A stretch of DNA of 63,802 bases, filler included, from Collodictyon triciliatum (Eukaryota): NCBI GenBank assembly GCA_043381765.1. It is 45 parts of 45 records of this genome, joined end to end, with 100 filler letters (N's around TTAATTAATTAA, not from the genome) between each part and the next. Parts side by side here need not be neighbours in the genome. Positions count along the whole stretch, not along the records: positions 1,428 to 2,754 come from JBHJMP010011416.1; 44 more parts are not named here. The stretch is one strand, 5' to 3'. The notes under the pieces are model-generated. The model worked only from the letters and a program-made list of their open reading frames with translations, searched no databases and was not told the origin of the DNA. Below are positions 1,588-2,095 of the stretch, in pieces. Positions within the stretch are counted from its first letter, which is position 1; each line of letters begins with the position of its first letter. The position numbers were made by a program, and so were the translations under genes.

Positions 1588-2095
1588 TGAGTAAACATAA
1601 TTCATGCACGGTCAATTATGAAAAATTTCGAGAATATGTATCTATGAAATCAAGATACCAGATATAACTATTCATATTTTATGAACACGTAACTTTTCGA
1701 AAGATGAGGTGGAGACAGTATGTTAATACAAAAAGAGGTGAACAGTTGTTTATGGACTGAATCGAAAAGACATTTGGCAAGGATGTTGCACTGGCGTATG
1801 GAGACTGGAGCAGAAAATGTCGGATGAAAACATTTTATGTCAACAATCGGAAGAGGATTACGAAAAAAAATTATCTAAACGTTTTGAAACAGTTAGTGTA
1901 GATGAATTTAGACCCTCCAAGATGTGTTGCAACTGTGAAAAAGAACTGGAACATATGACACTGAAAGGAAATACAAAAAGAGTTGTTAAGATGTCTCATA
2001 TGTAAAGAATGGAATCGCCCAGAAAGCAAACAAAGTGTATTCTTGACAAGGGACTTTAACAGCTTTAAAAATATACTCAAGAAAGTTCTTTTAAT
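1588..2095 (+). pseudogene. Fanzor (eukaryotic TnpB-like RuvC nuclease), 5'-truncated, with stops and frameshifts
   Basis: Stitched frames: LSKHNSCTVNYEKFREYV / FYEHVTFRKMRWRQYVNTKRGEQLFMD*IEKTFGKDVALAYGDWSRKCRMK / HFMSTIGRGLRKK / LSKRFETVSVDEFRPSKMCCNCEKELEH / ELLRCLICKEWNRPESKQSVFLTRDFNSFKNIL. These contain the GDWS, VDEFRxSK+CxxC and RDxN..NI motifs. Confidence 0.85.

What the first reader, a model, noticed from the sequence alone, without database searches (positions are those of the whole stretch)
1588..2095. Decayed Fanzor RNA-guided nuclease missed by the ORF track
Seen: several frames stitch into ...AYGDWS...GRGLRKKLSKRFETVSVDEFRPSKMCCNC...CLICKE...TRDFNSFKNIL. Three of the frameshifts fall in A-runs and there are in-frame stops. 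Known: Fanzors carry a relocated RuvC-II Glu just before the zinc finger and an RDxN RuvC-III Asp; GDWS is Fanzor1-like. Inference: it resembles compact giant-virus-type Fanzors, so this protist hosts or hosted an OMEGA element, possibly virus-delivered, and intact copies may exist elsewhere. RuvC-I is absent from this copy.
Basis: partly seen in the sequence, partly recalled or inferred. Interest (0 to 1): 0.8.

Follow-up and report, generated by a model that had tools for sequence, protein, structure and literature searches.

The report
Dead Fanzor1 nuclease gene fragment
This short unplaced contig carries the broken tail end of a Fanzor1 gene, a eukaryotic and giant-virus relative of the bacterial RNA-guided nuclease TnpB; it is a real but ordinary genomic fossil.

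Summary
The window is 45 contigs of about 1.3 kb joined by N linkers. The finding lies in contig 1428-2754.

A frameshift-aware alignment shows that 1430-2187 (+) is the C-terminal third (~230 codons) of a Fanzor1 gene. It is broken by five +1 frameshifts and two in-frame stops.

- **Closest relative:** P0133, an environmental fragment, is 66% identical (147 of 222).
- **Profile test:** a profile of 15 full-length relatives hits the read-through at E 7e-62. It hits 0 of 200 shuffles and no other piece of the window.
- **Family:** those relatives match only solved Fanzor1 structures, with SpuFz1 at E 9e-37.
- **Motifs kept:** the GDW strand, the relocated Glu, both CxxC pairs and the RDxN Asp.
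- **RuvC-I:** it would lie about 100 nt beyond the contig's 5' end, so its loss is not shown.
- **Real decay:** a second decayed copy (P0001) shares one frameshift, so that break is not a sequencing error.
- **Giant-virus link:** the full-length relatives (560-660 aa, not compact) sit in Atlas clusters dominated by Nucleocytoviricota. This makes the link a reasonable lead, but it is not shown for this copy.
- **Not found:** omega-RNA, transposon ends or an intact copy.

Partial Fanzor copies and virus-host sharing of Fanzors are already published. Interest is low.

The parts
1428..2754 (.). The 1327-bp unplaced contig that holds the relic. It is bounded on both sides by artificial N44-TTAATTAATTAA-N44 linkers.
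   Evidence: 45 segments of 1312-1327 bp, sorted by length
1430..1585 (+). Segment 1 (frame 2). This is the linker/helical region between RuvC-I and the GDW strand. Homology begins at the contig's first codons, so the gene is cut by the contig end.
   Evidence: P0004 residues 33-79 aligned from 1448; P0133 from 1478; frame read
1587..1826 (+). Segment 2 (frame 0). It contains in-frame stops TAA 1665-1667 and TGA 1758-1760 and the GDWS strand at 1800-1811, where the canonical RuvC-II position is occupied by Gly.
   Evidence: pieces 1587-1664, 1668-1757, 1761-1898 hit profile positions 425-447, 455-480, 483-521
1828..1863 (+). Segment 3 (frame 1, ...KHFMSTIGRGLRK). It is entered by a +1 shift in GAAAAC (1827-1830) and left by a +1 shift in the A8 run (1863-1870).
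   Evidence: The 1827 shift is shared by P0001 (alignment, sequence).
1865..1984 (+). Segment 4 (frame 2). It holds the relocated catalytic Glu (GAA 1904-1906, in VDEF) and the first zinc-finger pair CCNC (1925-1936).
   Evidence: piece 1742-2002, E 7e-11, profile 514-555. Invariant N529/E530/C537/C538/C540 of the family.
1986..2123 (+). Segment 5 (frame 0). It holds the second zinc-finger pair CLIC (1992-2003) and the RuvC-III motif RDFN (2049-2060; Asp GAC 2052-2054).
   Evidence: piece 1965-2126, E 1e-9, profile 554-599. Family columns C564, C567, R580, D581, N583.
2125..2187 (+). Segment 6 (frame 1). This is the C-terminal tail (FKKQAVG...), entered by a +1 shift in the T4/A6 run. It ends at TGA 2185-2187.
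   Evidence: P0133 tail aligned to 2145; ORF 2095-2187
2188..2754 (.). Downstream DNA, where an omega-RNA and the right transposon end would be expected. No such feature could be shown. GC rises to 0.5 at 2430-2630, and the contig ends in a (CAAAAA)n microsatellite.
   Evidence: (z = 0.70); Pfam nothing on ORFs 2276-2665, 2320-2637, 2419-2754

Best explanation
Window 1430-2187 (+) is a non-functional relic of the 3' third of a Fanzor1 gene.

The intact ancestor (inferred from relatives of 560-660 aa) was an RNA-guided double-strand DNA endonuclease carried by a mobile element. It would bind an omega-RNA transcribed from the element's 3' end, find a TAM-flanked complementary target, and cut it with a split RuvC triad. 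That triad is Asp of RuvC-I, a Glu relocated to just before the zinc finger, and Asp of the RDxN motif. Cutting would help the element persist or home.

In this copy the reading frame is destroyed by five +1 frameshifts and two stop codons. The longest open piece is 87 aa. The 5' two thirds of the gene lie off the 1.3-kb contig. No protein of this kind can therefore be made from it.

What is shown: the homology, the breaks, retention of the Glu/Asp/zinc-finger residues, and the existence of a second decayed copy sharing one break.

What is inferred: the nuclease mechanism (from solved or assayed Fanzor1s), the mobile-element context, and the origin, whether a host transposon or a giant-virus insertion.
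For: 1. An exhaustive phmmer search with the 87-aa open piece found 13 proteins at E<=1e-3 out of 1.84 billion. Of these, 10 of 13 show the TnpB/Cas12f zinc-ribbon domain PF07282 at E<=0.1, and 1 of 13 is above the curated cut-off.
2. tblastn of those 13 proteins hits only 1448-2138 in the window, best E 1e-28.
3. Frameshift-aware alignment gives 66% identity (147 of 222) to P0133, and 49-53% to P0012, P0007 and P0004. The same stops appear in all, and the frameshifts fall at the same places wherever the alignments overlap (the 1586 and 2124 breaks lie outside some).
4. A profile of 15 full-length relatives scores the X-masked read-through at E 7e-62 over profile positions 411-607. Five single-frame pieces hit colinearly. 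0 of 200 shuffles and 0 of 1888 other pieces hit.
5. P0012 aligns over nearly its whole length with SpuFz1 (8gkh, E 9e-37), and also with Parasitella Fz1 (7e-34) and Guillardia Fz1 (7e-16). All 3 hits at E<=1 are Fanzor1. For P0133 the top 3 of 5 hits at E<=1 are the same Fanzor1s; the other two have E 0.15 and 0.97.
6. The family's invariant or near-invariant Y-G-x-W, N/E530, two CxxC pairs and R-D-x-N are all present in the window copy.
7. P0001 (136 aa, NCBI source, 582-bp contig) reads the same out-of-frame stretch as window frame 1 (27 of 36 residues identical by my count from the alignment). It then runs straight into the in-frame part. Its locus therefore carries the same frameshift as the window at about 1827.
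8. In a 28-row tree the window groups with P0133 (support 98/86), and with P0006 and P0004 (100/99). Its end branch is 0.41 against 0.18 for P0133.
9. From passages read: Fanzors replace the canonical RuvC-II Glu with Gly or Pro and use an alternative Glu further along the sequence (PMC10530073). SpuFz1's active site is E541/D383/N385/D606 (PMC10432273). S. punctatus has 42 Fz loci of which only 19 are full length (PMC10432273).
Against: - Pfam and PDB searches with the single-frame pieces alone found nothing relevant. The word-index search for longer proteins also found nothing. The assignment therefore rests on a chain through relatives, though each link is strong.
- Three of the five frameshifts lie in homopolymer runs (A4, A8, T4/A6), and all five are in the same direction. 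On a short, probably low-coverage contig some could be sequencing errors, and no reads were available.
- At columns conserved in at least 14 of 15 family members, the window keeps 45 of 71 and its uninterrupted relative P0133 keeps 49 of 70 (approximate alignment). Substitution decay beyond the subfamily's own divergence is therefore modest.
- No omega-RNA, TIR, TSD or transposase was found. The 'mobile element' part is inferred.
Confidence: 0.9

Rival explanations
1. The gene is intact, or nearly so, in the organism. On this reading the frameshifts and stops are sequencing or assembly errors of a low-coverage 1.3-kb contig.
For: Three of five frameshifts fall in homopolymer runs, and all five are single extra bases. 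The contig is a tiny unplaced piece ending in microsatellites. The catalytic Glu and Asp and all four zinc-finger cysteines are kept.
Against: - Two frameshifts (1586, about 1985) and both stops are not in long runs.
- One frameshift (about 1827) is shared with a second copy, P0001, that differs at 36 of 136 aligned residues, so it is inherited.
- Near-invariant residues are lost: T533 to P, also in P0001, and a family Cys to Trp.
- ORFs with validated domains on other contigs pass homopolymers unbroken. The NIDO ORF at 55729-56499 matches profile positions 2-185 of 186 in one stretch with 12 runs of 4 or more. The Ephrin_rec_like ORF at 43084-43998 has one run of 8 or more.
Confidence: 0.05
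2. The contig is a piece of a giant-virus genome, either an endogenous viral element or a co-sequenced virus, and not a host transposon. On this reading the Fanzor relic is viral cargo.
For: Full-length relatives fall in ESM Atlas clusters that are 92-100% Viruses, commonest Nucleocytoviricota. One relative (P0020) is named 'Transposase, viral metagenome', and family members sit on contigs of up to 480,810 bp, two of them on a contig of that same length, probably the same one. There is a published precedent: Fanzor1 elements in a Chlamydomonas giant endogenous virus, plus a host-chromosome Fanzor fragment 80% identical to the viral one (bioRxiv 10.1101/2024.09.03.611062, passages read).
Against: - The window copy is only about 50% identical to that clade.
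- Clusters nearest its closest relative P0133 are mixed: Viruses 60-68%, and also Eukaryota 76-97% Mucoromycota.
- There is no viral hallmark on the contig, and none in 77 ORFs of at least 100 aa across the window.
- The relic's GC (0.31-0.37) equals that of most other contigs.
- Heavy decay argues against an active virus.
Confidence: 0.25
3. The frame changes are biological: programmed +1 ribosomal frameshifting as in Euplotes, or a variant genetic code, or short introns. On this reading the gene is expressed.
For: All five shifts are +1. Two of them (about 1877 and about 2127) could be placed at a 0-frame TAA, reading the sequence.
Against: - The shifts at about 1827 and about 1985 have no stop codon at the site.
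- TAA at 1665 and TGA at 1758 are aligned with ordinary residues (E/A and K) in relatives, and no single known code explains both.
- Only one base separates the segments, which is too little for an intron.
Confidence: 0.02
4. The sequence is a bacterial TnpB from contamination, or a chance resemblance.
For: Three loci of the same family were found on contigs binned as bacterial MAGs.
Against: - Those contigs are 1.7-2.7 kb and probably mis-binned.
- No TnpB, Cas12 or Fanzor2 structure is hit at E<=1 by P0012 or P0133, only Fanzor1.
- The GDW strand replaces the canonical Glu.
- E 7e-62 with 0 of 200 shuffles excludes chance.
Confidence: 0.01

Closest known systems
Spizellomyces punctatus Fanzor1 (SpuFz1, PDB 8gkh) and Parasitella parasitica Fanzor1 (PDB 9cf0)
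   Same: The full-length relative P0012 aligns over nearly its whole length with SpuFz1 (E 9e-37). P0133 aligns with PpFz1 (E 2e-12) across exactly the region kept in the window. That region runs from the FRKMxW helix through G(D/N)WS and the GLR loop to (D/N)E(F/Y)(R/K)TS-C..C. The catalytic layout is the same: relocated Glu and RDxN-type Asp.
   Different: The window copy is a broken 3' fragment. Identity to the solved proteins is low (not computed; the calls give E-values only). The window's subfamily has a longer linker upstream of the NS(C/K)TV(N/D)Y stretch than P0012, as read. No omega-RNA or inverted repeats could be shown here.
The 'Transposase'/DUF8286 (PF26935) family of about 620-660 aa, mostly from giant-virus (Nucleocytoviricota) records and metagenomes (P0012, P0020 and others)
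   Same: These are the closest full-length relatives, 49-52% identical over the retained region. The profile of 15 members scores E 7e-62. The motifs and their spacing are the same.
   Different: The window, P0133, P0004 and P0006 form their own well-supported long-branched group (100/99) in an unrooted tree. Taxon labels for that group are mixed. PF26935 is not in the Pfam copy I could scan, so membership rests on precomputed labels of relatives.
The Fanzor fragment on chromosome 17 of Chlamydomonas reinhardtii, related to Fanzor1 elements of its giant endogenous virus (bioRxiv 10.1101/2024.09.03.611062, passages read)
   Same: It is a partial Fanzor1 copy in a unicellular eukaryote's genome with relatives in giant viruses.
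   Different: There the viral donor is known (80% nucleotide identity) and the elements carry a Tc1/Mariner transposase. Here no donor, transposase or element ends are known.
Bacterial TnpB (IS200/IS605, e.g. ISDra2) and Fanzor2
   Same: They share the RuvC plus zinc-ribbon architecture. There is a weak PF07282 match in relatives.
   Different: Canonical TnpB keeps Glu where this family has Gly (GDW). No TnpB or Fanzor2 structure is hit at E<=1.

Membership tests
Fanzor1 | Significant sequence homology to experimentally characterised Fanzor1 proteins | tested here: met
   The link is through relatives. Window to P0133 is 66% identical, and P0133 to PpFz1/SpuFz1/GtFz1 scores E 2e-12/2.5e-8/1e-6. 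Window to the A1 profile scores E 7e-62, and P0012 to SpuFz1 scores E 9e-37. Direct phmmer of the single-frame pieces against PDB found nothing.
Fanzor1 | Canonical RuvC-II Glu replaced by an inert residue (Gly or Pro) | tested here: met
   GDWS at 1800-1811 aligns with GDWS of SpuFz1 and GNWS of PpFz1. The rule comes from PMC10530073 (passage read).
Fanzor1 | Alternative catalytic Glu just before the zinc finger | tested here: met
   GAA at 1904-1906 in VDEF-R-P-S-K-x-C aligns with near-invariant E530 of the family (after invariant N529) and with the DE(Y/F) of SpuFz1 and PpFz1.
Fanzor1 | CxxC...CxxC zinc finger between RuvC-II and RuvC-III | tested here: met
   CCNC at 1925-1936 and CLIC at 1992-2003 align with family C537/C538/C540 and C564/C567.
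Fanzor1 | RuvC-III Asp (RDxN) | tested here: met
   RDFN at 2049-2060 aligns with family R580/D581/N583.
Fanzor1 | RuvC-I Asp (GxDPG/DPN) | not testable with these tools
   In P0012 it is D372. The contig's first codons align near residue 405, so the motif would lie about 100 nt beyond the contig end.
Fanzor1 | Uninterrupted reading frame that can give an active nuclease | tested here: not met
   There are five +1 frameshifts and two in-frame stops. This copy is a relic of a member, not a working member.
Fanzor1 / OMEGA element | Omega-RNA (fRNA) encoded at the 3' end, and transposon ends | tested here: inconclusive
   No Rfam match. The fold of 2050-2440 is no better than shuffles (z 0.70). 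No informative inverted repeat was found.
Giant-virus (Nucleocytoviricota) Fanzor1 / DUF8286 clade | Nested among virus-encoded members in a labelled phylogeny, or flanked by viral genes | tested here: inconclusive
   Atlas taxa are viral for P0012's clusters and mixed for P0133's. The tree is unlabelled and unrooted. There are no viral genes on the contig.
Bacterial TnpB / Fanzor2 | Best matches among TnpB or Fanzor2, and a canonical RuvC-II Glu (for TnpB1) | tested here: not met
   Only Fanzor1 chains are hit at E<=1. Gly sits at the canonical Glu position.

The most novel reading that the evidence does not exclude
The relic is the footprint of a giant-virus-borne Fanzor1 element that entered this eukaryote's genome. 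Its dead copies then kept multiplying after inactivation. The window copy and P0001 share an inherited frameshift yet differ at 36 of 136 aligned residues (26%). That pattern would point to non-autonomous spread of a nuclease-dead OMEGA element, perhaps mobilised in trans.
Probability: 0.2. Interest if true: 0.45.

Novelty: new member of a known kind. Interest (0 to 1): 0.25.

Why it matters
It adds one more, dead, Fanzor1 copy to the thousands already catalogued in eukaryotes and giant viruses. Its main practical value is as a pointer. The same genome or its viruses may hold intact members of a little-studied Fanzor1 subfamily (the P0133/P0004/P0006 group), and the contig should be annotated as a transposon-derived pseudogene.

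If the virus-to-host route and post-inactivation spread were shown, it would be a further example of giant viruses vectoring RNA-guided nucleases into protist genomes. That route has already been documented in Chlamydomonas.

Tried and rejected
- **Single-frame pieces against Pfam** (6 pieces, E<=10): no relevant family.
- **Single-frame pieces against PDB**: only a chance GST hit at E 1.4, and nothing else.
- **Word-index search for longer proteins** with the 87-aa piece: 179 candidates, none at E<=1.
The query could not be made.
- **Other copies in the window**: none by blastn/tblastx of the contig or tblastn of 13 relatives.
- **Rfam**: 0 matches at gathering score in the whole window. Three sub-threshold chance hits on the contig, 19-21 bits against cut-offs of 50-100.
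- **RNA fold of 2050-2440**: z 0.70, with 78 of 100 shuffles folding at least as well.
- **Repeats on the contig**: one 71% direct pair and microsatellite-driven inverted pairs. Nothing like transposon ends.
- **Genome-contig scan**: 86 pattern matches gave 3 confirmed loci, all on 1.7-2.7-kb MAG contigs cut before the 3' end. They were useless for comparing the 3' non-coding region.
- **Programmed +1 frameshifting, variant code, introns**: considered and rejected (see rivals).
- **A RuvC-I remnant in 'LIDLDI' (1572-1586)**: considered and rejected. It aligns with a linker segment of P0004 and P0133, not with GxDPG.
- **Conservation count**: it used a mafft --add alignment that spread the window row widely, so treat its numbers as approximate.
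- **Tree**: it used 27 of the 133 fetched proteins plus the window. I left out P0001 (its N-terminus is out of frame), P0002, P0005 and P0013 (short), and about 100 members closely related to one another. It has no outgroup and no taxon labels.
- **Not checked**: structure prediction, fold search and complex prediction were not run because sequence evidence sufficed. The viral contigs and metagenome contigs collections and paper supplements were closed. The published Fanzor host tables (supplements of PMC10432273 and PMC10530073), which may already list this organism or subfamily, were therefore not seen.

Full report
**What the window is.** The 63.8-kb window is not one locus. It consists of 45 pieces of 1312-1327 bp, sorted by length and joined by N44-TTAATTAATTAA-N44 linkers. 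The finding lies in the second piece, 1428-2754 (GC 0.36). Only that 1.3 kb is genomic context.

**Checking the observation.**
- AYGDWS in frame 0 (1794-1811).
- GRGLRKK in frame 1.
- KKLSKRFETVSVDEFRPSKMCCNC in frame 2.
- CLICKE and TRDFNSFKNIL in frame 0.

Taken singly, these pieces hit nothing relevant in Pfam or among solved structures. A word-index search for longer proteins also found nothing.

An exhaustive phmmer search with the longest open piece (87 aa, 1742-2005) against 1.84 billion representatives gave 13 proteins at E<=1e-3. The best was P0001 (E 1e-13, 81% identity over the matched stretch). The set also included a full-length 634-aa protein, P0012.

Searching the window back with all 13 by tblastn gave matches only at 1448-2138, with E down to 1e-28. 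No second copy exists in the window.

**Anatomy.** I wrote a protein-versus-DNA alignment that allows frameshifts. A further search seeded with P0001 found P0133, a 223-aa uninterrupted fragment from an environmental contig.
- P0133 is 66% identical (147 of 222 aligned positions) to window 1478-2145.
- P0004, P0007 and P0012 are 49-53% identical.
- P0004 carries the homology to 1448, and by eye to the first codons of the contig.

The alignments agree on the damage wherever they overlap (the breaks near 1586 and 2124 lie outside the span of some):
- In-frame stops: TAA at 1665-1667 and TGA at 1758-1760.
- Five +1 frame changes: near 1586, 1827-1830 (GAAAAC), 1863-1873 (A8), 1973-1988 (an A5 run or GTTGTTA) and 2124-2130 (T4/A6).
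- The reading ends at TGA 2185-2187.

The true extent is larger, 1430-2187.

I built a profile from 15 full-length relatives (alignment A1). I ran it over all 1893 six-frame pieces of the window, the read-through with X at each of the 7 breaks, and 200 shuffles of that read-through.
- The read-through scored E 7e-62 (207 bits) over profile positions 411-607.
- Five single-frame pieces hit colinearly (E 4e-5 to 7e-11).
- None of the other 1888 pieces hit, and 0 of 200 shuffles hit.

**What family.** P0012 aligns over nearly its whole length with Spizellomyces punctatus Fanzor1 (8gkh, E 9e-37). It also matches Parasitella Fanzor1 (E 7e-34) and Guillardia Fanzor1 (E 7e-16). These are the only 3 chains at E<=1.

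P0133 hits the same three Fanzor1s (E 2e-12, 2.5e-8, 1e-6). Its other two hits at E<=1 are chance-level, at E 0.15 and 0.97. No TnpB, Cas12 or Fanzor2 structure appears.

Ten of the 13 first hits show the TnpB/Cas12f zinc-ribbon domain PF07282 at E<=0.1. One of the 13 is above the curated cut-off.

The family's invariant or near-invariant residues are GxDPGK (RuvC-I), Y-G-x-W, N-E, two CxxC pairs and R-D-x-N. The window keeps all of them except RuvC-I:
- GDWS at 1800-1811.
- The Glu codon at 1904-1906.
- CCNC at 1925-1936.
- CLIC at 1992-2003.
- RDFN at 2049-2060.

These correspond to what the literature describes. The canonical RuvC-II Glu is replaced by Gly or Pro, and an alternative Glu further along the sequence takes over (PMC10530073, passages). 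SpuFz1's metal site is E541/D383/N385/D606 (PMC10432273, passage).

**RuvC-I.** In P0012 the RuvC-I Asp is residue 372. The contig's first codons align at about residue 405. The motif would therefore sit about 100 nt beyond the contig's 5' end. Its absence reflects the assembly and is not a demonstrated deletion.

**Real decay or sequencing error?** No reads were available. Three lines of evidence argue that at least part of the damage is real.
1. P0001 comes from a different 582-bp contig (NCBI source). Its first 36 residues read the same wrong frame as window frame 1 (27 of 36 identical by my count from the alignment). It then continues without a break into the correct Fanzor frame. Its locus therefore carries the same frameshift as the window at about 1827. 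Elsewhere the two copies differ at 36 of 136 aligned residues, so the break was inherited. P0001 lacks the A8 and about-1985 shifts and has a break of its own after RDFNSA.
2. Both stops and two of the frameshifts are not in long homopolymers.
3. ORFs on other contigs with validated domains run unbroken through homopolymers. These are the NIDO ORF (profile 2-185 of 186 in one stretch) and the Ephrin_rec_like ORF.

Against strong decay, at family-conserved columns the window keeps 45 of 71 and P0133 keeps 49 of 70 (approximate alignment). In the tree its end branch is about twice that of P0133, 0.41 against 0.18.

Programmed +1 frameshifting, a variant code and introns were considered. They do not fit: two shift sites have no stop, TAA and TGA both lie at ordinary residues, and the segments are separated by a single base.

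**Origin.** A search with P0012 found 1638 relatives at E<=1e-5.
- All 120 listed relatives carry the precomputed family PF26935. The Atlas output names this DUF8286.
- They are 489-664 aa long.
- Some sit on contigs of up to 480,810 bp.
- One (P0020) is named 'Transposase, viral metagenome'.

ESM Atlas clusters around P0012 are 92-100% Viruses, commonest Nucleocytoviricota. Clusters around P0133 are mixed: viruses 60-68%, but also Mucoromycota-dominated eukaryotic clusters.

In an unrooted 28-row tree the window pairs with P0133 (98/86). With P0006 and P0004 it forms a separate, strongly supported group (100/99) among the family's lineages.

The giant-virus link is therefore a reasonable lead and not a result. 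'Compact' does not apply, because these proteins are the size of SpuFz1.

Nothing viral is on the contig. Among 77 ORFs of at least 100 aa across the window, only eukaryotic-type domains appear: COX16, RRM, LRR, NIDO, Ephrin_rec_like, and LINE endonuclease/zf-RVT. Whether the organism is a protist could not be tested.

**Omega-RNA and element ends.** The region downstream of the gene (2188-2754) gave no Rfam match. It shows no folding signal (z 0.70) and no terminal-repeat candidate. The only related DNA I could fetch was three short MAG contigs, all cut before the 3' end. The OMEGA-element part of the interpretation therefore remains inferred.

**Comparison with what is known.**
- Fanzor1 is reported in fungi, protists, arthropods, plants and giant viruses (PMC10432273, passage).
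- 3655 Fanzors were catalogued across eukaryotes and viruses (PMC10530073, passage).
- S. punctatus alone has 42 Fz loci, of which 19 are full length (PMC10432273, passage).
- A Chlamydomonas giant endogenous virus carries Fanzor1 elements. A related Fanzor fragment sits on a host chromosome (bioRxiv 10.1101/2024.09.03.611062, passages).

A decayed Fanzor1 fragment in a unicellular eukaryote's assembly is thus a new member of a known kind.

**Verdict.** The details on RuvC-I, 'compact' and virus delivery are corrected or left open. Interest is 0.25.

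Noticed in passing
window 1-63802: The window is an artificial concatenation of 45 contigs of 1312-1327 bp, sorted by length and joined by N44-TTAATTAATTAA-N44 linkers. Adjacency between pieces carries no biological meaning.
   Followed up: yes
window 1-1327 and 24213-25539: Two contigs have GC 0.54 and 0.575, against 0.29-0.48 for the other 43. The second carries COX16 and RRM ORFs, so it is eukaryotic. The cause could be a compositionally distinct genome compartment or a second organism.
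   Followed up: partly
window 28014-28364 (-) and 34169-34507 (+): There are fragments of non-LTR retrotransposons: an Exo_endo_phos endonuclease (E 3e-7) and zf-RVT (E 5e-7). The small unplaced contigs are enriched in repeats.
   Followed up: no
window 55729-56499 (-), 43084-43998 (+), 37006-38322 (+), 3867-4178 (+): These ORFs carry extracellular-type domains: NIDO (E 1e-47), Ephrin_rec_like x5 (E 1e-38), a cohesin domain in a 439-aa ORF that fills its whole contig, and FG-GAP. They hint at the kind of eukaryote but were not pursued.
   Followed up: no
window 1586, 1827, 1864, 1985, 2124: All five frame breaks of the relic go in the same direction, with one extra base each. This is unusual for neutral decay, where deletions usually dominate. 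It is compatible with some homopolymer over-calls.
   Followed up: partly
window 1-110, 1140-1327, 2690-2754, 3420-3770: Contigs begin or end in microsatellites: (GAAAAAAA)n, a 12-mer GATGATTGTGGT array, (CAAAAA)n and CT-rich arrays. These are probably where the assembler stopped.
   Followed up: no
L001, L002, L003: N-terminal parts of the same Fanzor1/DUF8286 family lie on 1.7-2.7-kb contigs binned into MAGs labelled Alphaproteobacteria and Bacteroidetes. This is most likely mis-binned viral or eukaryotic DNA and not bacterial carriage.
   Followed up: no
P0004, P0006, P0013, P0002: Several short database 'proteins' of this subfamily look decayed themselves (for example DKW for GDW, DEC for DEF, NWF for NEF). 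Dead copies of this Fanzor1 lineage therefore seem common in public data.
   Followed up: no
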